57,322 bases of DNA, from positions 1 to 57,322 of IMG/VR virus record IMGVR_UViG_3300046028_008890; one strand, 5' to 3'. Origin of the DNA: a virus. Its lineage: Duplodnaviria; Caudoviricetes. Below are positions 3,711-10,901 of this stretch, piece after piece. The notes beneath the pieces were generated by a model. It worked only from the letters and a program-made list of their open reading frames with translations, was not told the DNA's origin and searched no databases. The position numbers were made by a program, and so were the translations under genes. Within the stretch, counting starts at the first letter, position 1. Each line of letters opens with the position of its first letter.

Positions 3711-4109
3711 ATGGCTACAAGATCTTACATCGGAGTTAGAAACACAGATGCTTCAGTTGATTATATTTACTGCCACTTTGATGGCTACCCAGAGCACAAC
3801 GGACAGATCCTAACGGAGCATTATAATAATCCTAACCGAGTAAATGAATTAATGAAGCTGGGTGATTTGAGTGTGTTGGGAAAATTTATTGGTGAAAAAC
3901 AGGATTTCGATAAGCGAATTAAAGATAATTGTTTAGCATACGGTAGAGATAGGGGTGAATCGAATGTGGGAGTGAAAAATACCAGCTATGATAAATTGAT
4001 TGTCGATCAAAGTGTTGATTATGTTTATATTTTCGACGGTGATTATTGGGAGTGCCACAGCACATATACTCCAGAATTAATTAATTTATATGATAAAGCA
4101 GACGCTTAA
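3711..4109 (+). CDS. conserved phage hypothetical protein (MATRS..YCHxDGYP family)
   Basis: Start moved to 3711 after the promoter; YCHFDGYPEHNG motif. Confidence 0.8.
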   Translation: MATRSYIGVRNTDASVDYIYCHFDGYPEHNGQILTEHYNNPNRVNELMKLGDLSVLGKFIGEKQDFDKRIKDNCLAYGRDRGESNVGVKNTSYDKLIVDQSVDYVYIFDGDYWECHSTYTPELINLYDKADA

Positions 4110-4170: not shown

Positions 4171-4214
4171 ACATGGGCAAAATTAAACACGTATATTTAT
4201 CAAAATTAAAACAT

Positions 4215-4478
4215 ATGACAATAAAAGATTTGATTGAACAATTAAGTAAATTTAATCCAGAAACAGAAGTATTAGGTATGTGTACTGACCCTACAGATTA
4301 CACCTACAAAGTACCTATTAAGTCAATTATACTAGATGACCCTTATGATTCAAATGGTTATTCAGGTGTAGATGGTTCTGAAGTAGATTGGGTAGAGTGT
4401 TATAATGAAGATGAAGAAACAGGTGAAGAAACTTATATTGGTCCTAAGGTTGTATTATTAAATTTAGGTGATGTATAA
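4215..4478 (+). CDS. hypothetical early protein, paralog of 5698-5889
   Basis: MTIKDLIEQLSKFNPETEVLG; start after the promoter. Confidence 0.8.
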   Translation: MTIKDLIEQLSKFNPETEVLGMCTDPTDYTYKVPIKSIILDDPYDSNGYSGVDGSEVDWVECYNEDEETGEETYIGPKVVLLNLGDV

Positions 4479-4534
4479 AAACATCACTTTTTTTTGTCAC
4501 AATTATTTATATATATTTAATCAAATTAAAAATT

Positions 4535-4705
4535 ATGAGTGATAAATTAACATTAGAACAAAACGAACGTTTAAATGAATTAGAATCTGTGTTAAAAGTT
4601 TTTTTATATGATGTAGATTATTTGAGAGAATTTGGTGAAGATGAAGAAACAGATGTTAATTCTTTGTTTGATGATGTGTTTGATAGAATTAGAGAATTAA
4701 ATTGA
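4535..4705 (+). CDS. acidic hypothetical protein (56 aa, not in ORF track)
   Basis: MSDKLTLEQNERLNELES...; promoter at 4496. Confidence 0.75.
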   Translation: MSDKLTLEQNERLNELESVLKVFLYDVDYLREFGEDEETDVNSLFDDVFDRIRELN

Positions 4706-4751
4706 TTTTTTTGTCACAACTATTTACGTACATTTATCAAAATTAAAACAT

Positions 4752-4940
4752 ATGAAATATTTAGTAATTGAATTTTTTGGAAATGATAATTATTTTACTA
4801 CAAATGGTTGTACAATTGATGAATTAGTAGAGGAAATGTATGGCGGTAGAGAAGAATTTAATTTAGAAGAAGCTAAGAAATCATTTTTTGAAAATTATGA
4901 TGTATTTGAGATTAGAGGTGAGTTGGTAAAGATAAATTAG
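4752..4940 (+). CDS. acidic hypothetical early protein
   Basis: ORF with own promoter. Confidence 0.8.
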   Translation: MKYLVIEFFGNDNYFTTNGCTIDELVEEMYGGREEFNLEEAKKSFFENYDVFEIRGELVKIN

Positions 4941-4957
4941 TTTTTTTATATCAGGTG

Positions 4958-4986
4958 AATGTGGGTGGTCAGAAATGATCACCCAT
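4958..4986 (+). repeat. left copy of 29-bp hairpin direct repeat; terminator-like
   Basis: aatgTGGGTGGTCA-gaaa-TGATCACCCAt followed by a T run; 27/29 identical to 6954-6982. Confidence 0.9.
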
Positions 4987-5072
4987 TTTTTTAATATTAT
5001 CTTAACATAATTAATTTAAAATATATTTGTTTTGTTATAATTAATTTATTATATTTATATAAATTAATAATT

Positions 5073-5315
5073 ATGATTAAAATTTATTGTATTGATGATG
5101 ATGGTGATTTAGTTAGAGATTATAAGGTTAGTAGTGATTTGTTGATGGAGAGATTTGTATTAAGTGAGGGTGATGTAAGTGAGATAATGAGTGAGATAGG
5201 AATTTATAGTGTAGAGGATGATGTGGAGATGTTTAGAGTGGATAGTGTGGAGGATATTGATTTGGATATGTGGTTAAATAGGGTAGGTATTGATTTTGAG
5301 TTGAGGAGGAGGTGA
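5073..5315 (+). CDS. acidic hypothetical protein, C-less gene
   Basis: Intact ORF with promoter; no Ala/Pro/Thr/His/Gln. Confidence 0.8.
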   Translation: MIKIYCIDDDGDLVRDYKVSSDLLMERFVLSEGDVSEIMSEIGIYSVEDDVEMFRVDSVEDIDLDMWLNRVGIDFELRRR

Positions 5316-5382
5316 TGGATAAAAAAATAAATTAGTTTAATTGTGATTAATGATGTATATTTGTATAAATAAATTATTAATT

Positions 5383-5637
5383 ATGAGTATAGAATTAAAA
5401 TTGAATGAATTAGATGAAATGTTTAGTAAGTGTGGAAATGGAGTGTTTATTATGTGTATGAGTAATAGAGGGGATAAAAAGGATAGATTTAGGATTTGTA
5501 GAGAGAGTTGGAAATTAGGTAGTAGAGTGAATTGGGTGAAGTGTAAAAAAATATTGAGTTTAGAAGGTATTGAATTTGTGGAGGGTGAAAGTGGATGGGG
5601 AATGAGAATGAGTAGATGTATTGATTTTAATTATTAA
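5383..5637 (+). CDS. hypothetical protein, C-less gene
   Basis: Start moved to 5383 after the promoter; no A/P/T/H/Q. Confidence 0.8.
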   Translation: MSIELKLNELDEMFSKCGNGVFIMCMSNRGDKKDRFRICRESWKLGSRVNWVKCKKILSLEGIEFVEGESGWGMRMSRCIDFNY

Positions 5638-5697
5638 AGTAAATTAGTTTAATTAAAATTAATTATGTATATTTAGTTATAATTAAAAAATTAAAGT

Positions 5698-5889
5698 ATG
5701 AAAGTAAAAGAATTAATTAGTTTATTAAGTAAATTTAATGGTGAATTAGATGTATTAGGTGAATTTGATAGTGATGGTGATGAATTTATGGTTAAAATAG
5801 ATGTTAATAAAGTATATAAAGGTAATAATATTGATGATAGTAATTGGGATGATGATGGTAAAGAATATTGTATAATATTATTAAAATAA
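5698..5889 (+). CDS. hypothetical protein, C-less paralog of 4215-4478
   Basis: MKVKELISLLSKFNGELDVLG versus MTIKDLIEQLSKFNPETEVLG. Confidence 0.8.
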   Translation: MKVKELISLLSKFNGELDVLGEFDSDGDEFMVKIDVNKVYKGNNIDDSNWDDDGKEYCIILLK

Positions 5890-5944
5890 ATTTGTATTGT
5901 TAGAATTAATTGTGTATATTTAATTATAATTAAAAATTAAAAAT

Positions 5945-6244
5945 ATGAAATTAAATTTAAAAGATTTAAAAGAATGGATGTGGATTGAAGTATGTGAAGG
6001 TGATGATAAGATAAAGATTAGTAATAAGTATAAAAAAGTATGTGATGGAATTGGAGATGAAGAAGTAAGTGGTGGAAATTATATTTGGTATTTTTATTTG
6101 ATATTAGATAGATTAGTTGAAAAAGAAATGATAGAGTTTGAAGGTGGTGATTTTGATTGGATATATGAATTTTTAAAGGAATATAATGAGGAGAATAATT
6201 TTAATAAGTATATGGATGAATATAATTTATTAGTTATTAAATAA
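5945..6244 (+). CDS. acidic hypothetical protein, C-less gene
   Basis: Intact 99-aa ORF with promoter. Confidence 0.8.
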   Translation: MKLNLKDLKEWMWIEVCEGDDKIKISNKYKKVCDGIGDEEVSGGNYIWYFYLILDRLVEKEMIEFEGGDFDWIYEFLKEYNEENNFNKYMDEYNLLVIK

Positions 6245-6297
6245 ATTAGTTTAGTTAGAATTAATATTGTATATTTAATTAATTAAAAAATATAATT

Positions 6298-6582
6298 ATG
6301 ATTATTGAAAATTATTTAGAAAGTATGATTTATGATTTTAATTGTGGAAATGATAATGAGTATGATGAAGGAGAATTAGTAGAGTTTAGATATGAAGAAA
6401 TTGAAAAAGGAGATTTAGATAATTATGATGAAGAAGATGTAAATATGTTTTATGAAATGAGAGATTATATTAATGAAGTGAAAGAAATAAAATATAAAAA
6501 TGATGATGATGGAATAGAATATATTTTTAGTGTAGAAGAAAATGATATAGTTTGTAGATTTAAAGAAGTAATTAGGTATTAA
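6298..6582 (+). CDS. highly acidic hypothetical protein, C-less gene
   Basis: Intact 94-aa D/E-rich ORF with promoter. Confidence 0.8.
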   Translation: MIIENYLESMIYDFNCGNDNEYDEGELVEFRYEEIEKGDLDNYDEEDVNMFYEMRDYINEVKEIKYKNDDDGIEYIFSVEENDIVCRFKEVIRY

Positions 6583-6640
6583 ATAAATTAGTTTAGTTAG
6601 AATTAATAGTGTATATTTATTTAAATTAAAAATTATTATT

Positions 6641-6739
6641 ATGAATTTAATTAATTATGTTATTTTATTTACTATTTTATTTAATGTTATTTTTATTAGT
6701 ATTAGTTATAAAGTAGAATTAGATAGAAGAAAAAATTAA
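6641..6739 (+). CDS. 32-aa membrane peptide containing the island's only C (Thr11, ACT)
   Basis: MNLINYVILFTILFNVIFISISYKVELDRRKN; promoter at 6596. Confidence 0.6.
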   Translation: MNLINYVILFTILFNVIFISISYKVELDRRKN

Positions 6740-6792
6740 ATTTGTTTTGTTAGAATTAATATTGTATATTTAATTAATTAAAAAATATAATT

Positions 6793-6951
6793 ATGAATTT
6801 AAGTTTAAAGGAATTAAATGATTTGTATTATTGTGTAGGTAAGATGAGATGGTATAGTGAAGGAAGTAAAATGATAAGTAATGAAGAGTGTGAATTATTA
6901 TTAGATAGGTTAAGGGATGAAATAAATAAAGTAGTAAAAGAAGAAGAATAA
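6793..6951 (+). CDS. 52-aa hypothetical protein, C-less gene (not in ORF track)
   Basis: MNLSLKELNDLYYCVGKMRW...; promoter at 6749. Confidence 0.7.
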   Translation: MNLSLKELNDLYYCVGKMRWYSEGSKMISNEECELLLDRLRDEINKVVKEEE

Positions 6952-6953
6952 TA

Positions 6954-6982
6954 AATGTGGGTGGTCAGGAATGATCACCTAT
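6954..6982 (+). repeat. right copy of 29-bp hairpin direct repeat; overlaps the promoter of the next gene
   Basis: aatgtgggtggtcaggaatgatcacctat; GTCA-N12-TATCTTCA. Confidence 0.9.
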
Positions 6983-7011
6983 CTTCATCTAAACAATATA
7001 AATCAATTAAT

Positions 7012-7110
7012 ATGAGTATGTATTCAATTAACGTAGCTGCCTTAGTAACAATCTTAGTGAACACAGTAATACTAGTAGGTGTCTGGAGACATCAGCGCAG
7101 GCAAAAATAA
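7012..7110 (+). CDS. small membrane peptide
   Basis: 32-aa hydrophobic ORF after the promoter. Confidence 0.5.
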   Translation: MSMYSINVAALVTILVNTVILVGVWRHQRRQK

Positions 7111-7148
7111 GGTCATATATTCAGGACACAATTAAAAATTAAAACAAT

Positions 7149-7328
7149 ATGGAAAATTTAATTATTAGAACCAAGTATTTAAATGTATCATTAATTCCAG
7201 GTGTATTATTCGGAGCAATATATACCGACCAGGAAATAGGTATAGTAATAGGGCCACTAGCACTAACGATTAAACTGTATGCCTTCAACCGTAAACGTAA
7301 AGCGACACCCAATACAAATGAATTATAG
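7149..7328 (+). CDS. 59-aa hypothetical protein (not in ORF track)
   Basis: MENLIIRTKYLNVSLIPG...; promoter at 7100. Confidence 0.65.
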   Translation: MENLIIRTKYLNVSLIPGVLFGAIYTDQEIGIVIGPLALTIKLYAFNRKRKATPNTNEL

Positions 7329-7381
7329 GTGGACGGGGCAAAGCCCCGTTCATATATTCATCACATAATAAAATTAAACAT

Positions 7382-7564
7382 ATGAAACAATTTATCATTT
7401 CACTTCTAGTATCATTAATCGTATTGTATCTAGTAGTATCATTCATCAGCCTCACTCCCAATATAGCTGAATGGGGTTCGGGTGGACGTGGTGCTTATCT
7501 ATTCTTCGGAGCGTTATTTGGAGGTATAGCTTACGTTATCTATTACGAAACAAATAATAAATAG
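7382..7564 (+). CDS. small two-TM membrane protein
   Basis: Two hydrophobic helices; own promoter. Confidence 0.75.
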   Translation: MKQFIISLLVSLIVLYLVVSFISLTPNIAEWGSGGRGAYLFFGALFGGIAYVIYYETNNK

Positions 7565-7608
7565 ATGATGGGGCGAAGGCTCCACCTTACATTCACACTA
7601 TAAAATTA

Positions 7609-7869
7609 ATGAATATGAATTACATGATTAATGATCTAGCAAGTAAAGAAGTAGCAATCGCATTCGCTCAATGGACTATCCTTAACGGTATGTGGAACTC
7701 AGACCTCACATTCGATGAACAGTATGAGTGCTGGATGAAGGTACTGGATGACCAGGCGCACGATGCTAGATTGGCACATGACAGTGTGGATGATGAGGAT
7801 TATGAGGATTTCGGGGCATATATTATGGCGAGGAGGAAAATGGAAAGTGTGTTGATGTCGGGGCGCTAG
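7609..7869 (+). CDS. hypothetical protein
   Basis: ORF with own promoter. Confidence 0.7.
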   Translation: MNMNYMINDLASKEVAIAFAQWTILNGMWNSDLTFDEQYECWMKVLDDQAHDARLAHDSVDDEDYEDFGAYIMARRKMESVLMSGR

Positions 7870-8066
7870 CGATTGTTAGCGGCCCGATAGCGGTCTGATT
7901 GCGATCTGCTCCCACGCTAGCCGCGGTCCATCGACGGGGCGGGGGCGGCGTAAAAAAGGATAGGCACATTCTCAACACGCATACACCTCTACACCCCCGA
8001 CAATATATACGCATATACTAACTAATAAATCACATACTACACTATATTTATTAAAAACACACACGT

Positions 8067-8330
8067 ATGAGAATATTGTCTATTATCCTTATTATGTTAT
8101 TAATGTCTAGTTGTAGTAAGTATAGAGTTCAAGTAGTTAACCCAAGAGGATCATTTCATGATGGTGAATACCATAATGGACATTTTTACCCCTATCCTCC
8201 AAATACAAATACAATAATACCCAGTACTCCACTACCTCGTCGAGTAATTAAATCTTCTATAAAAAAGAATAGCAAAAGTGGTTTAAACCAAGTTCCGAGT
8301 AGGTTGCAACATTTCAAAGATCTCCTTTAA
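8067..8330 (+). CDS. putative lipoprotein
   Basis: Signal peptide ending in lipobox-like LMSSC. Confidence 0.6.
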   Translation: MRILSIILIMLLMSSCSKYRVQVVNPRGSFHDGEYHNGHFYPYPPNTNTIIPSTPLPRRVIKSSIKKNSKSGLNQVPSRLQHFKDLL

Positions 8331-8379
8331 CACACCTTTTTATGTCGACAAAGTATATATCACCATCAATAAATCTTTT

Positions 8380-8556
8380 ATGAATAAAAAATATATTGAG
8401 AGTACACTCATGCTAACTAAAGAGGCGTTTAACGATTATATATTAAAACAACAATCAACCCAAGCAACATCGTTTGGGTTAACGTTGGAACAGTATCAAC
8501 AAGCTATTATTGAGGGGTCTGTTGTTCAATCTTCTCCACAATCAGGCAGTTTGTAA
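8380..8556 (+). CDS. 58-aa hypothetical protein (not in ORF track)
   Basis: MNKKYIESTLMLTKEAF...; overlaps the convergent gene by 50 nt. Confidence 0.4.
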   Translation: MNKKYIESTLMLTKEAFNDYILKQQSTQATSFGLTLEQYQQAIIEGSVVQSSPQSGSL

Positions 8557-9025
8557 AATCCTTACCCAAATCCTCAATCACACGTTGCGCCGTCACCGAA
8601 TCGATGCTAAACATTTCCCTATTCTCAGCTACCCTATATTGACTCAGATGTTCATGTACTCGTTGCTCTAATATGTGTGAAGCATAACATTTAAGCGCCC
8701 AAACAGGTACCCATGGCGTTGGAACACCGGTCGCTCTATTAATATCGCGCGCACGTTTTACTGGTGTGTCGGTAGTCATCCCTATCTTCACCATACCAGG
8801 CATCGATCTATTTACTAACACATACACATATTCCATCGCACGCACACCACCCGATGAATCTATTACGGGTTCTTTTAAATAAATTATATCTTCCCATCCC
8901 TCTTTAAATCCAGGATCTGTTGTAGGCATTAATGCATAGTGAGTAGCCATATTACCCTCACCCGGCTTTAGCCGTATATAATATTGTATATCCTTAGCGG
9001 GAATGCGTATAAAATTTCCTTTCAT
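8507..9025 (-). CDS. T5orf172-like (GIY-YIG superfamily) protein
   Basis: YVYVLVN..MPGMVKIGMT..P..RA..I..ATGVPTP motif; early-type promoter on the minus strand at ~9030-9060. Confidence 0.85.
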   Translation of the reverse strand: MKGNFIRIPAKDIQYYIRLKPGEGNMATHYALMPTTDPGFKEGWEDIIYLKEPVIDSSGGVRAMEYVYVLVNRSMPGMVKIGMTTDTPVKRARDINRATGVPTPWVPVWALKCYASHILEQRVHEHLSQYRVAENREMFSIDSVTAQRVIEDLGKDFTNCLIVEKIEQQTPQ

Positions 9026-9165
9026 CTACAATAATATAAACTAGATATTTTGACAGTCAAAGTGCTTTTAATATGTTTAATAGTATATACGGATTAAGAT
9101 GGTGGTGGTGGGAGCCATATGCTGCATACATTATTATTTTAACATATTTATGGAAAATATAGGAA

Positions 9166-9426
9166 ATGGTATTTAAGATAAATTCTGGAGATAAAGCTGC
9201 CTTTTTAAATCGTATGGAAAAACAAGGCGAAACCATCAGCAGTAAGCAAATTAAAGACGTTAAACTCGAAGATTATTTTGAAGTAGAAATTACTAATCCT
9301 GAGCAGTTAGAAATTACAAAAGCAATTCTAAAACAGTCTCCAAAAATAAACACATTAAATGAAAGACTTACTAAAAGTTCACTTAAAGAAATGGTGCGTC
9401 GGGAATTGTATAGAATCCATAATTAA
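9166..9426 (+). CDS. hypothetical protein
   Basis: ORF after ATATTTAT motif. Confidence 0.75.
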   Translation: MVFKINSGDKAAFLNRMEKQGETISSKQIKDVKLEDYFEVEITNPEQLEITKAILKQSPKINTLNERLTKSSLKEMVRRELYRIHN

Positions 9427-9445
9427 TAAATAATATTATAAAGAT

Positions 9446-9473
9446 AGGGTGTCTTAAAAAAGACGCTCTTTTT
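9446..9473 (+). terminator. rho-independent terminator
   Basis: AGGGTGTCT/AGACGCTCT stem with G-U pairs, then Ts. Confidence 0.6.
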
Positions 9474-9600
9474 CTTTGGAGGTATAAAATTTCTTCGGTA
9501 ACTTCGCCCTACGAGGGTTAGGGAAATGAGGGAATGAGAGATAGTAGCATGGGTTGGGAAAACGGAGGAAATCGTATATTTATATATATAAACAAACATT

Positions 9601-9798
9601 ATGAAGTATAAAAACAACGTTGCGGAAAAATTAGGACAATTAGATGCGACAGCAAACAGAATTAAGTTTCAAGTAAATAGGGCTGCGGATCAAGATTTGA
9701 CTTTAGAATCGATTGAAGATTTAAAAGAACAAATTGAAAAATTACAAGAAATGATTTCTTTGGAGCAAGACGATTTTGCACAACAATTTAGAGGGTAA
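9601..9798 (+). CDS. hypothetical coiled-coil protein
   Basis: ORF after the promoter motif. Confidence 0.75.
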   Translation: MKYKNNVAEKLGQLDATANRIKFQVNRAADQDLTLESIEDLKEQIEKLQEMISLEQDDFAQQFRG

Positions 9799-9803
9799 TA
9801 ACT

Positions 9804-10076
9804 ATGGTATGGTTTTGGGTAATAATAATTCATTTAATTGAAGTTGTAGCAATAGGAGTATTTCTACTTATTAGACGTAACGGTGCACTTGAAAAAGCAG
9901 TTAACGATCAACAGCAATACATTGATGCTATTAGTATAGTAATTAGTGATTCTGATAGACGTTTACGTGAATTAGATACTATGGGTGCTTTTGAAGCGGA
10001 TGATGAAGTAGGTACTTTCTTCCAAAATTTAAGAGAAATACAAACTTCCATTAGTCAGTTTAATAATAGAAAGTAA
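9804..10076 (+). CDS. membrane-anchored hypothetical protein
   Basis: N-terminal TM helix plus coiled coil. Confidence 0.75.
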   Translation: MVWFWVIIIHLIEVVAIGVFLLIRRNGALEKAVNDQQQYIDAISIVISDSDRRLRELDTMGAFEADDEVGTFFQNLREIQTSISQFNNRK

Positions 10077-10127
10077 CTTGGTTATGTAACTTATTTCCCG
10101 TATATTGATATTAAAATAGGGAATTAC

Positions 10128-10901
10128 ATGTCATATTATGAAAATTATGGAGCTGATATATTTGCTGATGAGAAGGTATCCTTGACTAAACGTGGCTTAC
10201 CACGCAAGCGAAAACCAAAGGAACCTCGTATTTACTTTACTCAGGATACTGAAGATGCTATTGTAGAATATCTTATTACTGTAGATACTACTGAACGTAA
10301 TCGCATTTATAATGATCGTATTGAATATGGTTTTTATAAGTTAGCCGAAAATATAATTCATACGTTTAAATTTTATTATACTGATACGGATACAATTGAA
10401 GAACTCAAGCATGAGGTTATTACCTTCTTGCTTGAGAAACTTCATTTATATAAGCCAGAAAAAGGTAAAGCATTTTCTTATTTTGGTACTATTGCTAAAC
10501 GCTATCTTATAGTTTATAATGAAAATAACTATAAGAAACTTCAGGAAAGAGCTGATGTAGATGCATCGGATGAAGATCAGATGCAGTTATATGAAAATGA
10601 TAAAAATTTAGAGAATATATTTAATGAAAATAATTTTATGGATCAGTATATTCGATATATTGATAAACATATATATAAATTATTTCCTAAAAAACAAGAC
10701 GCTCAAACAGCAGATGCTATTGTTGAATTATTTCGTAAACGTGAAACATTAGAAATATTTAATAAGAAAGCACTATACATTTATATTCGTGAAATAACAG
10801 ACGTATCTACACCTCAAATAACTAAGATAATTAAAAAATTAAAGATAATATACGTTCAATTGTATAATGACTATTATCAACACGGATATATAAAGATTTA
10901 A
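10128..10901 (+). CDS. phage RNA polymerase sigma factor (T4 gp55-like late sigma)
   Basis: Region-2-like segment KLAENII...ELKHEVITFLLEKLHLYKPEKGKAFSYFGTIAKRY. Confidence 0.75.
   Translation: MSYYENYGADIFADEKVSLTKRGLPRKRKPKEPRIYFTQDTEDAIVEYLITVDTTERNRIYNDRIEYGFYKLAENIIHTFKFYYTDTDTIEELKHEVITFLLEKLHLYKPEKGKAFSYFGTIAKRYLIVYNENNYKKLQERADVDASDEDQMQLYENDKNLENIFNENNFMDQYIRYIDKHIYKLFPKKQDAQTADAIVELFRKRETLEIFNKKALYIYIREITDVSTPQITKIIKKLKIIYVQLYNDYYQHGYIKI

What the first reader, a model, noticed from the sequence alone, without database searches (positions are those of the whole stretch)
5007..6965. A 2-kb cytosine-free gene island: seven intact genes written almost entirely in A, G and T
Seen: 1959 nt of the coding strand contain a single C (6672), while G is plentiful and the flanks contain C. 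The seven ORFs are intact and each has a promoter. The proteins lack Ala, Pro, His and Gln, with one Thr in total; these are exactly the amino acids whose codons need C. Ser, Leu and Arg use only AGT, TTR and AGR. Inference, competing explanations: (a) C-less mRNA needs no CTP and would resist ddhCTP chain termination (prokaryotic viperins), CTP depletion or C-containing RNase sites such as MazF ACA; (b) a C-free strand cannot contain any palindromic restriction site with a G:C pair, useful for first-injected unmodified DNA; (c) a G-free template strand avoids a modified or ADP-ribosylated guanine; (d) chronic strand-specific C deamination of an exposed single strand. I know of no described system like this.
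Basis: partly seen in the sequence, partly recalled or inferred. Interest (0 to 1): 0.97.

Follow-up and report, generated by a model that had tools for sequence, protein, structure and literature searches.

The report
Phage early genes written without cytosine
An uncultured lake phage of the T4 type carries seven small early genes, with their promoters and spacers, whose coding strand holds one cytosine in about 2 kb; natural selection keeps it so, and the reason is still open.

Summary
Window 5007-6965 has 1 C in 1959 nt, against 13.4% C in the window. It holds seven intact ORFs, each behind an early-type promoter box. It is not an artefact: contigs of four other lake metagenome runs carry the same sequence.

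It is not C-to-T hypermutation. There are no stops, acidic residues rise, and a C-containing paralog differs by Pro-to-Gly and Thr-to-Ser(AGT) recoding. Selection maintains it: 104 differences in five orthologous gene pairs never involve C, against 469 of 965 in the flanks.

The block is a swappable cassette set with a patchy distribution among relatives. The lineage is immuto-like. All 5 complete genomes encode DpdA3, and cultured immuto replaces every G by formyl-preQ1.

My best guess (0.38) is a template strand free of modified G. However, 3 of 4 complete DpdA3 metagenomic relatives, CP220 and five other QueC viruses have no such genes. A cost of C in the nascent RNA remains a close rival.

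Five paper searches found no description. This scan has found the same thing before on other DNA.

The parts
4961..4993 (+). Intrinsic terminator that closes the preceding early gene and marks the left border of the island: an 11-pair hairpin followed by a T run. It is the left copy of a hairpin direct repeat of about 29 nt.
   Evidence: The terminator scan finds it. Fold -18 kcal/mol, z -3.9. The repeat was found.
5007..6965 (+). Cytosine-free tract: promoters, leaders, seven ORFs and spacers, with 1 C in 1959 nt. The template strand is therefore G-free.
5050..5057 (+). Early-type promoter box (TATATTTA) of ORF1, with TTTG 15 nt upstream at 5031. This first promoter lies behind a terminator and is still C-free.
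5073..5315 (+). ORF1: 80 aa, net charge -13, 0 C. Its ortholog in G001 is 84% identical and also has 0 C.
5356..5363 (+). Promoter box of ORF2.
5383..5637 (+). ORF2: 84 aa (alternative start at 5350), Cys-rich, 0 C. It has an ortholog in G001.
5668..5675 (+). Promoter box of ORF3.
5698..5889 (+). ORF3: 63 aa, 0 C. It is a paralog of the C-containing gene at 4215-4478. Orthologs carry 0 C (G002), 2.6% C (L021) and 6.6% C (L022).
5915..5922 (+). Promoter box of ORF4.
5945..6244 (+). ORF4: 99 aa, 0 C. The predicted fold is helical (pLDDT 84.5). Ten homologs down to 58% identity almost lack Ala, Pro, Thr, His and Gln.
6270..6277 (+). Promoter box of ORF5.
6298..6582 (+). ORF5: 94 aa, net charge -21, 0 C. 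The protein is identical in G001, with 2 synonymous differences.
6612..6619 (+). Promoter box of ORF6.
6641..6739 (+). ORF6: 32 aa, hydrophobic. It holds the only C of the island (6672, second base of the Thr codon ACT). It is absent from G001.
6765..6772 (+). Promoter box of ORF7.
6793..6951 (+). ORF7: 52 aa, 0 C, predicted helical hairpin (pLDDT 94.3). It is the last gene of the island in all four islands seen. Its family occurs in a C-free state and in a normal-C state.
6957..6982 (+). Right copy of the hairpin repeat. It holds the first Cs after the island and has no T run, so it may not terminate.
   Evidence: Fold -15.1 kcal/mol. The terminator scan does not call it.
4535..4940 (+). Two C-poor early genes just upstream (4535-4705 with 7 C, 4752-4940 with 6 C). 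Nearly all their Cs sit at codon positions 1-2.
4215..4478 (+). C-containing paralog of ORF3, for comparison. The longer ORF call 4173-4478 that contains it has 10.8% C.

Best explanation
Shown or strongly supported (about 0.9). The island is a swappable block of small early genes that the host RNA polymerase probably reads from host-type promoters. Purifying selection keeps the whole unit (promoters, leaders, ORFs and spacers) free of C on the sense strand. The proteins are real: they are mostly acidic, and two of them fold with confidence. They are written with 15 amino acids.

Inferred mechanism (about 0.38). The phage belongs to the immuto-like lineage, whose DpdA3 system replaces every G of virion DNA by a 7-deazaguanine derivative. 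A sense strand without C gives a template strand without a single modified base. This unit could then be read at full efficiency, or unnoticed by a host factor that reacts to modified G met by the polymerase, directly from the injected and fully modified DNA. Its products, probably host-takeover or anti-defence proteins, would appear first.

The cost would be paid per template G. That would explain why synonymous C is purged completely and why only Cs needed for amino acids survive in neighbouring genes. The trait is optional, so some further condition, probably on the host side, decides which phages carry it.
For: 1. Selection, not chance or mutation.
- 104 nucleotide differences in five orthologous pairs never involve C. 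In the flanks 469 of 965 differences do.
- Per-gene C content is bimodal. Of 83 ORFs, 6 are at 0%, none lie between 0.5% and 3%, and the median is 13.5%.
- In eight C-poor genes, 34 of the 37 remaining Cs are at codon positions 1-2.

2. Link to G modification.
- All 5 complete genomes of the lineage encode DpdA3, QueC and FolE: G002, G004, G005 and G006 by tblastn, and immuto by annotation.
- In immuto the dG peak is gone and fdPreQ1 takes its place. DpdA3 is described as completely modifying (PMC10516641, passages).
- QueC is rare: 165 of 50,697 phage records. It is therefore unlikely to be a coincidence that a lineage that replaces G is also the one that avoids G on a template.
- Cultured immuto has one such gene, gp128 (3 C in 360 nt).

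3. Published in-vitro work. In that study, ethynyl and vinyl groups on 7-deazaguanine inhibited E. coli and B. subtilis RNA polymerase more than the same groups on A or C (PMC4838386, section 24 and passages).

4. The first promoter lies behind a terminator with a T run, so read-through into it is likely reduced. It is C-free all the same.
Against: - DpdA3 is not sufficient. Three of 4 complete DpdA3 metagenomic relatives (G004-G006) have no ORF under 6.3% C. The same holds for CP220, which is 100% dADG-modified, and no ORF of five other QueC viruses falls below 8.2% C.
- Most early genes of this phage contain C behind the same promoter type.
- In PMC4838386 the modified templates inhibited initiation, not elongation. 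No pausing was seen on the vinyl-7-deazaG template.
- The island promoters keep G on the non-template strand.
- The window itself shows no modification genes. It covers only 35% of the genome, so the modification is inferred from relatives.
- The same gene family (ORF7) occurs in a C-free and a normal-C state. That looks more like a pressure that differs between hosts.
Confidence: 0.38

Rival explanations
1. C-less RNA. The pressure acts on the nascent or finished message, or on CTP use, and not on the DNA. Each C costs expression because of a host-linked agent: a C-dependent endoribonuclease, a CTP analogue or CTP shortage, or some C-recognising RNA factor other than Rho. Phages that meet such hosts keep their first anti-defence genes C-free.
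For: - The whole transcription unit, leaders and spacers included, is C-free.
- Synonymous C is purged in C-poor neighbours.
- The distribution among close relatives that all have DpdA3 is patchy, and the ORF7 family exists in two states. This pattern is typical of arms-race cargo.
- The products are small and mostly acidic (net charge -4 to -21 in 5 of 7).
- Contigs in other samples may skip or swap the block (weak, short sides).
Against: - No agent with the needed properties is known for transcripts made by host RNA polymerase.
- ACA is not specially avoided. It is the joint commonest context of the remaining Cs, 9 of 37.
- Archaeal MazF motifs are mostly UG-rich (PMC13107127, passages). That matters only if earlier scan notes on archaeal-type viruses hold.
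- The first promoter is also C-free although it lies behind a terminator.
- This reading leaves the co-occurrence with a rare G-replacing lineage as a coincidence.
Confidence: 0.3
2. Rho avoidance. Rho loads on C-rich, G-poor naked RNA. Early phage messages made before any phage antiterminator exists are kept invisible to Rho by removing all C.
For: - Rho targets long stretches with C in excess of G, and sense strands avoid them (PMC13323073, abstract and section 7).
- The island has G at 21% and essentially no C, and it is 62% purine, against 55% in the window.
Against: - Ordinary genes here already have G above C (17.1% against 13.4%), so zero C is far more than avoidance needs.
- A mechanism that depends on C density should leave a few Cs. 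Instead no ORF lies between 0.5% and 3% C.
- T richness raises the Rho target score in B. subtilis, yet T rises to 38% in the island.
- To my knowledge Rho is present in nearly all bacterial hosts, yet 3 of 4 complete relatives lack the trait.
Confidence: 0.1
3. Restriction or first-entry protection. A C-free strand cannot carry any palindrome that contains G:C, so the first DNA to enter the cell is uncuttable.
For: It follows from the composition that the island has no G:C palindromes.
Against: - The phage is T4-like (T4-type terminase and portal).
- The complete relative G002 has its single island at 73.5 kb of 173 kb, and its ends only overlap by 58 nt. There is no sign of a fixed entry end.
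- Only 2 kb would be protected.
Confidence: 0.03
4. Mutational origin. Strand-specific C-to-U deamination or another hypermutation produced the tract, either in one event or continuously.
For: T is somewhat raised (38% against 31%).
Against: - The lost C is shared among T (+6.7 points), G (+4.0) and A (+2.6).
- Flank genes have 4 CAA/CAG/CGA codons per 100. Conversion would therefore give about 20 stops in 504 codons, and there are none.
- Asp plus Glu rise from 15% to 23%.
- The paralog differs by CCA-to-GGT and ACT-to-AGT.
- The state persists through 104 substitutions.
Confidence: 0.02

Closest known systems
PeSL (promoter-early stem-loop) cassettes in hyperplastic regions of T4-type phages RB49 and phi1 (Arbiol et al. 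2010, PMC2839356; abstract and outline seen)
   Same: Arrays of small non-essential ORFs, each behind its own strong host-type early promoter. Gene content differs between close relatives through recombination at the repeated regulatory sequences.
   Different: Stem-loops stand only at the island's two borders, and the inner spacers have no structure. The PeSL abstract and outline that I saw report no exclusion of a base.
[quoted passage not shown]
   Same: The phage lineage is the same: structural genes are 69% identical in DNA to immuto, and all 5 complete genomes have DpdA3. The avoided template base is the modified one.
   Different: That system is a DNA chemistry, not a rule for writing genes. 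In the passages I read, the paper does not mention base-free genes. CP220 has none.
Purine bias of sense strands as avoidance of the terminator Rho (Dierksheide et al. 2026, PMC13323073; abstract and section 7 seen)
   Same: A strand-specific shortage of C relative to G in transcribed sequence, under selection on expression.
   Different: That bias is a genome-wide and modest skew. Here a discrete gene class sits at exactly 0% C, with raised T.
ACA-less mRNAs in the MazF single-protein-production system (PMC9102682 in a search listing; PMC13107127, passages), and synthetic C-less or G-less cassettes for in-vitro transcription (recalled, from no call)
   Same: Messages are made immune to an agent by removing a letter or a motif from the sequence.
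   Different: Those are engineered. Here the state is natural, covers the whole unit, and concerns C itself rather than ACA.

Membership tests
PeSL-type early cassette array (T4-type hyperplastic region) | Small ORFs, each behind its own host-type early promoter | tested here: met
   All 7 island ORFs and 4 upstream genes have the TA(T/C)ATTT(A/G) box 15-28 nt before the ATG. That this box matches the Bacteroidota promoter consensus is recalled, not tested here.
PeSL-type early cassette array (T4-type hyperplastic region) | A stem-loop terminator joined to each promoter | tested here: not met
   Terminators stand before the upstream genes and at the left border of the island (4143, 4466 and 4961). 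There are none inside the island, and the inner spacers fold no better than shuffles.
PeSL-type early cassette array (T4-type hyperplastic region) | Gene content shuffled between close relatives | tested here: met
   The window has 7 genes, G001 5, G002 4 and L021 2. ORF5 is identical in G001 while its neighbours are 84-92% identical.
DpdA3 7-deazaguanine DNA modification | dpdA3 together with preQ0 pathway genes in the same genome | tested here: inconclusive
   Not found in the window, which is only 35% of a genome. Present in all 5 complete genomes of the lineage.
DpdA3 7-deazaguanine DNA modification | G chemically replaced in virion DNA | not testable with these tools
   Known only for cultured immuto (PMC10516641).
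Rho-avoiding purine bias | G in excess of C and a low pyrimidine content on the sense strand | tested here: inconclusive
   G in excess of C is met to the extreme, but T rises to 38%. T richness raises the Rho target score in B. subtilis.
First-injected restriction-avoiding region (T5 FST type) | Position at a fixed entry end of the genome | tested here: not met
   T4-type packaging genes. In complete G002 the island is at 73.5 of 173 kb, and the ends only overlap by 58 nt.
Cytosine deamination hypermutation | C replaced by T, with new stops and Val, Ile, Tyr and Phe gains | tested here: not met
Motif-free mRNA against MazF-type toxins | Avoidance of the motif (ACA) rather than of C itself | tested here: not met
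   ACA is the joint commonest context of the remaining Cs in C-poor genes, 9 of 37.

The most novel reading that the evidence does not exclude
DNA hypermodification dictates how a virus must write its first genes. Viruses that replace a base completely keep a 'clean-template' set of immediate-early genes whose sense strand lacks the complement of the modified base. Here that means no C because every G is a 7-deazaguanine. The missing letter of such tracts would then predict the modified base of an uncultured virus, and it would reveal a so far unknown sensitivity of host transcription, or of a transcription-coupled defence, to modified template bases.
Probability: 0.3. Interest if true: 0.95.

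Novelty: categorically new. Interest (0 to 1): 0.85.

Why it matters
Natural protein genes written with three of the four bases, and so with 15 amino acids, and kept that way by selection, are not part of textbook knowledge. I found no description in five full-text searches.

They show that some step of early phage gene expression charges a price for every single C in the message, or every G in the template. If the cause is the phage's own modified guanine, this links DNA hypermodification to gene design and gives a sequence-only marker for it. If the cause is a host factor, it points to an undescribed defence or regulator that reads cytosine.

The cultured pair immuto 2-6A and Flavobacterium sp. 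LMO8 has one such gene, so the question can be tested at the bench. The proteins are also natural examples of compact folds built from a reduced alphabet.

Tried and rejected
Function of the proteins.
- PHROGs gave only unknown-function families: ORF3 matched phrog_22847 at 5.5e-5, and the other ORFs were above 0.006.
- Pfam gave nothing above its cut-offs. PADLOC gave nothing for the seven window ORFs.
- Foldseek against the PDB gave no match at E <= 0.001 for ORF4 or ORF7 (best E 1.5 and 2.7).
- The protein atlas gave no usable lead.

Relatives among cultured phages.
- blastn of the island found no match.
- tblastn of ORF3 and ORF7 found no match.
- The search for related loci with ORF4 found none.

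Association test.
- QueC was sought in the 8 further IMG/VR records that carry an ORF7 homolog. The result was 0 of 8, but all are fragments of 5-52% completeness, so it says nothing.
- Pfam TGT does not detect DpdA3: 0 of 5 and 0 of 5 records. DpdA3 was therefore found by tblastn with the immuto protein.

Expression. No RNA holder was listed for the stretch.

Joints in metagenome contigs that skip the island (for example 4980 to 7119) have short sides of 20-57 letters. I use them only as a hint.

The first island HSP (190 substitutions) probably aligns some non-orthologous cassettes. For the count I therefore rely on the five orthologous gene pairs.

dN/dS values (0 to 0.9) are inflated, because synonymous changes to C are counted as possible although they are forbidden here.

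Supplementary files of the papers were not opened. Supplementary Data S1 of PMC10516641 may list further DpdA3 phages.
Full report
What is there. The window is a whole IMG/VR record of 57,322 nt. It is linear and estimated at 35% of a genome. Almost all large ORFs lie on the + strand. It encodes a T4-type large terminase, a T4 gp20-like portal, a primase and a T5orf172 protein. Its structural genes are 69% identical in DNA to the 160-kb Flavobacterium phage vB_FspM_immuto. It is thus a fragment of an immuto-like, T4-type phage. Runs that hold it are labelled lake-water metagenomes.

The observation. Positions 5007-6965 contain A 801, T 743, G 414 and one C, at 6672. The two C-free runs measure 1665 and 293 nt. 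The next longest in the window is 76 nt, and no other base is missing for more than 61 nt. By chance this has a probability of 10^-120 at the window's C content, and 10^-42 even at 5% C. Seven ORFs are open. Their 504 codons hold no Ala, Pro, His or Gln and one Thr. Ser, Leu and Arg use only AGT, TTR and AGR.

Anatomy.
- A hairpin with a T run at 4961-4993 is a predicted intrinsic terminator.
- The C-free tract begins 14 nt after it.
- Each of the seven ORFs has a TA(T/C)ATTT(A/G) box 15-28 nt before its ATG. Where the strict pattern fits, TTTG or TTAG lies 15 nt further upstream.
- The same box precedes the four early-type genes upstream (3714, 4215, 4535, 4752) and does not occur in 7000-8000. 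The island is therefore the last stretch of an array with one promoter per gene.
- That this box resembles the Bacteroidota housekeeping promoter is my recollection, not a call.
- The upstream genes carry stem-loop terminators. Inside the island the spacers have no structure, as expected for RNA that cannot form G-C pairs.
- At the right border a near copy of the left hairpin (6957-6982) holds the first Cs, but it lacks a T run.

It is real. The stretch is held by 24 listed runs, 15 of them with at least half of its sampled words. Seven are flagged as a possible source. I laid contigs of four runs that are not flagged. The main strain is identical, for example 4500-6264 and 4500-5864 with 0 differences. 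Of 28 variant rows inside the island, one is to C (G>C at 5840, in one diverged contig). Of 8 rows outside, 3 involve C. These are contigs, so rare variants are not visible.

It is selected, not mutated. I found relatives with the neighbouring gene 3714-4109 (18 loci).
- Three have a C-free tract at the same place: L006/G001 with 1475 nt and 0 C, L007/G002 with 790 nt and 2 C, and L021/G003 with 828 nt and 0 C.
- Five orthologous gene pairs differ at 104 nucleotide positions without one C on either side: ORF1, 2, 5 and 7 against G001, and ORF3 against G002.
- In the flanks of the same two phages, 469 of 965 differences involve C.
- Deamination fails as an explanation. The lost C is spread over T, G and A. 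Flank genes have 4 CAA/CAG/CGA codons per 100, which would give about 20 stops, and there are none. Asp plus Glu rise from 15% to 23%.
- ORF3 has a paralog with ordinary C content just outside the island. The two differ by CCA(Pro) to GGT(Gly) twice, ACT(Thr) to AGT(Ser), and CAA(Gln) to TTA(Leu). This is conservative recoding.

A discrete class with a fringe. Among 83 ORFs of at least 40 codons in the window, 6 have 0% C, none lie between 0.5% and 3%, and 2 have 3-5% (the two genes just upstream). The rest have 5-30%, with a median of 13.5%. In eight C-poor genes of the window, G001, G002 and immuto, 34 of 37 remaining Cs sit at codon positions 1-2 and only 3 at position 3. In flank genes 11% of third positions are C. 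So C is removed wherever the protein allows. ACA is the joint commonest context of the survivors (9 of 37), so ACA is not the target.

The proteins.
- Five of seven are acidic, with net charge -4 to -21.
- ORF4, folded with 9 homologs, gives pLDDT 84.5, though the five models range from 45.6 to 84.5. ORF7, folded with 28 homologs, gives a helical hairpin at pLDDT 94.3.
- No family or fold match gives a function.
- ORF4's ten homologs go down to 58% identity. By eye they hold at most one Ala or Thr each, apart from one with an unrelated tail.
- ORF7 closes the island in all four phages. Its family has 40 clusters at 50% identity. Twelve have no Ala, Pro, Thr, His or Gln at all, and 14 have five or more, up to 17% of residues.
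- At the DNA level, 8 further IMG/VR homologs split cleanly. Three have 0, 0 and 1 C. Five have 15-23 C in 126-147 nt.
- One gene family thus exists in two states.

Distribution. Gene content differs: 7 genes here, 5 in G001, 4 in G002 and 2 in L021. ORF5 is identical in protein in G001 while its neighbours are 84-92% identical. This fits cassette exchange at the repeated promoters, as described for PeSL cassettes of T4-type phages (PMC2839356, abstract). Complete G002 has exactly one such tract in 173 kb, in mid-record, and its ends merely overlap by 58 nt. Complete G004, G005 and G006 have no ORF under 6.3% C on either strand. The more distant G003 and cultured immuto do have such genes: immuto gp128 has 3 C in 360 nt. 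The trait is patchy.

The guanine link. In immuto the dG peak is absent and 7-(formylamino)methyl-7-deazaguanine takes its place. DpdA3 is described as completely modifying in immuto, CP220 and phiST (PMC10516641, passages). DpdA3, QueC and FolE are present in all 5 complete genomes of the lineage. The window and G001 do not reach that region. QueC occurs in only 165 of 50,697 phage records. A lineage that replaces G and also avoids G on a template strand is unlikely to be a coincidence. In one in-vitro study, ethynyl and vinyl groups on 7-deazaguanine inhibited bacterial RNA polymerases more than the same groups on A or C (PMC4838386).

Against this link:
- That study located the effect at initiation and saw no pausing in elongation.
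- CP220 (DpdA3, fully modified) and five other QueC-bearing viruses (HCTV-16, phi38:2, Seurat, Ssp-JY38 and MD-2021a) have no tract beyond chance and no ORF under 6.4% C.
- Three of four complete DpdA3 metagenomic relatives lack the trait.
- So modification may be necessary, but it is not sufficient.

Rivals. A cost of C in the RNA (nuclease, analogue or shortage) fits the patchy, arms-race-like distribution and the two-state family, but it lacks a known agent. Rho avoidance (PMC13323073) fits the direction of the bias, but it does not fit a discrete class at exactly zero, the raised T, or the patchiness. First-entry restriction avoidance and hypermutation are poorly supported.

Earlier notes of this scan report the same phenomenon on other DNA, including G002 itself, and in archaeal-type viruses that carry G-modification genes. 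I could not check the archaeal-type viruses of those notes. The one archaeal QueC virus I scanned was negative.

Verdict. This is a real, selection-maintained set of three-letter early genes. As far as five searches show, it is unpublished. I put the clean-template reading at 0.38 and the C-less RNA reading at 0.30.

Noticed in passing
window 4957-4985 and 6945-6973: The island is bracketed by a direct repeat of a hairpin of about 29 nt. The left copy has a T run and the right copy does not. Some metagenome contigs seem to join across the island (for example 4980 to 7119), which would fit excision or swapping of the whole block, but the joined sides are short.
   Followed up: partly
window 6298-6582 and L006 7885-8169: ORF5 is identical in protein, with only 2 synonymous differences, between the window and G001. 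Neighbouring island genes are 84-92% identical. This suggests a recent exchange of one cassette.
   Followed up: partly
L088 9051-9570: This 88-kb IMG/VR fragment has an ORF7 homolog with normal C content (17 C in 126 nt). It also has a separate low-C tract of 520 nt with 4 C elsewhere in the locus.
   Followed up: no
L082 151-500 and 851-2230: A 12.9-kb IMG/VR fragment holds two low-C tracts (350 nt with 2 C, 1380 nt with 3 C), including a C-free ORF7 homolog.
   Followed up: no
G002 (L029) 5471-10833: The complete relative G002 has QueD, DpdA3, QueC, FolE and a phosphoribosyltransferase, but gave no tblastn match to immuto QueE, QueF or the formyltransferase DpdN. Its 7-deazaguanine derivative may therefore differ from fdPreQ1.
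   Followed up: partly
window 8507-9025 (- strand): A T5orf172/MUG113 domain protein is the only large ORF on the minus strand. It lies just after the early cassette array, and immuto has a T5orf172 gene at the matching place.
   Followed up: no
window 7000-8000: After the island the upstream sequences change to a different conserved motif (ATATATTCA- or TACATTCA-like) and the genes have 16-17% C. This looks like another promoter class.
   Followed up: no
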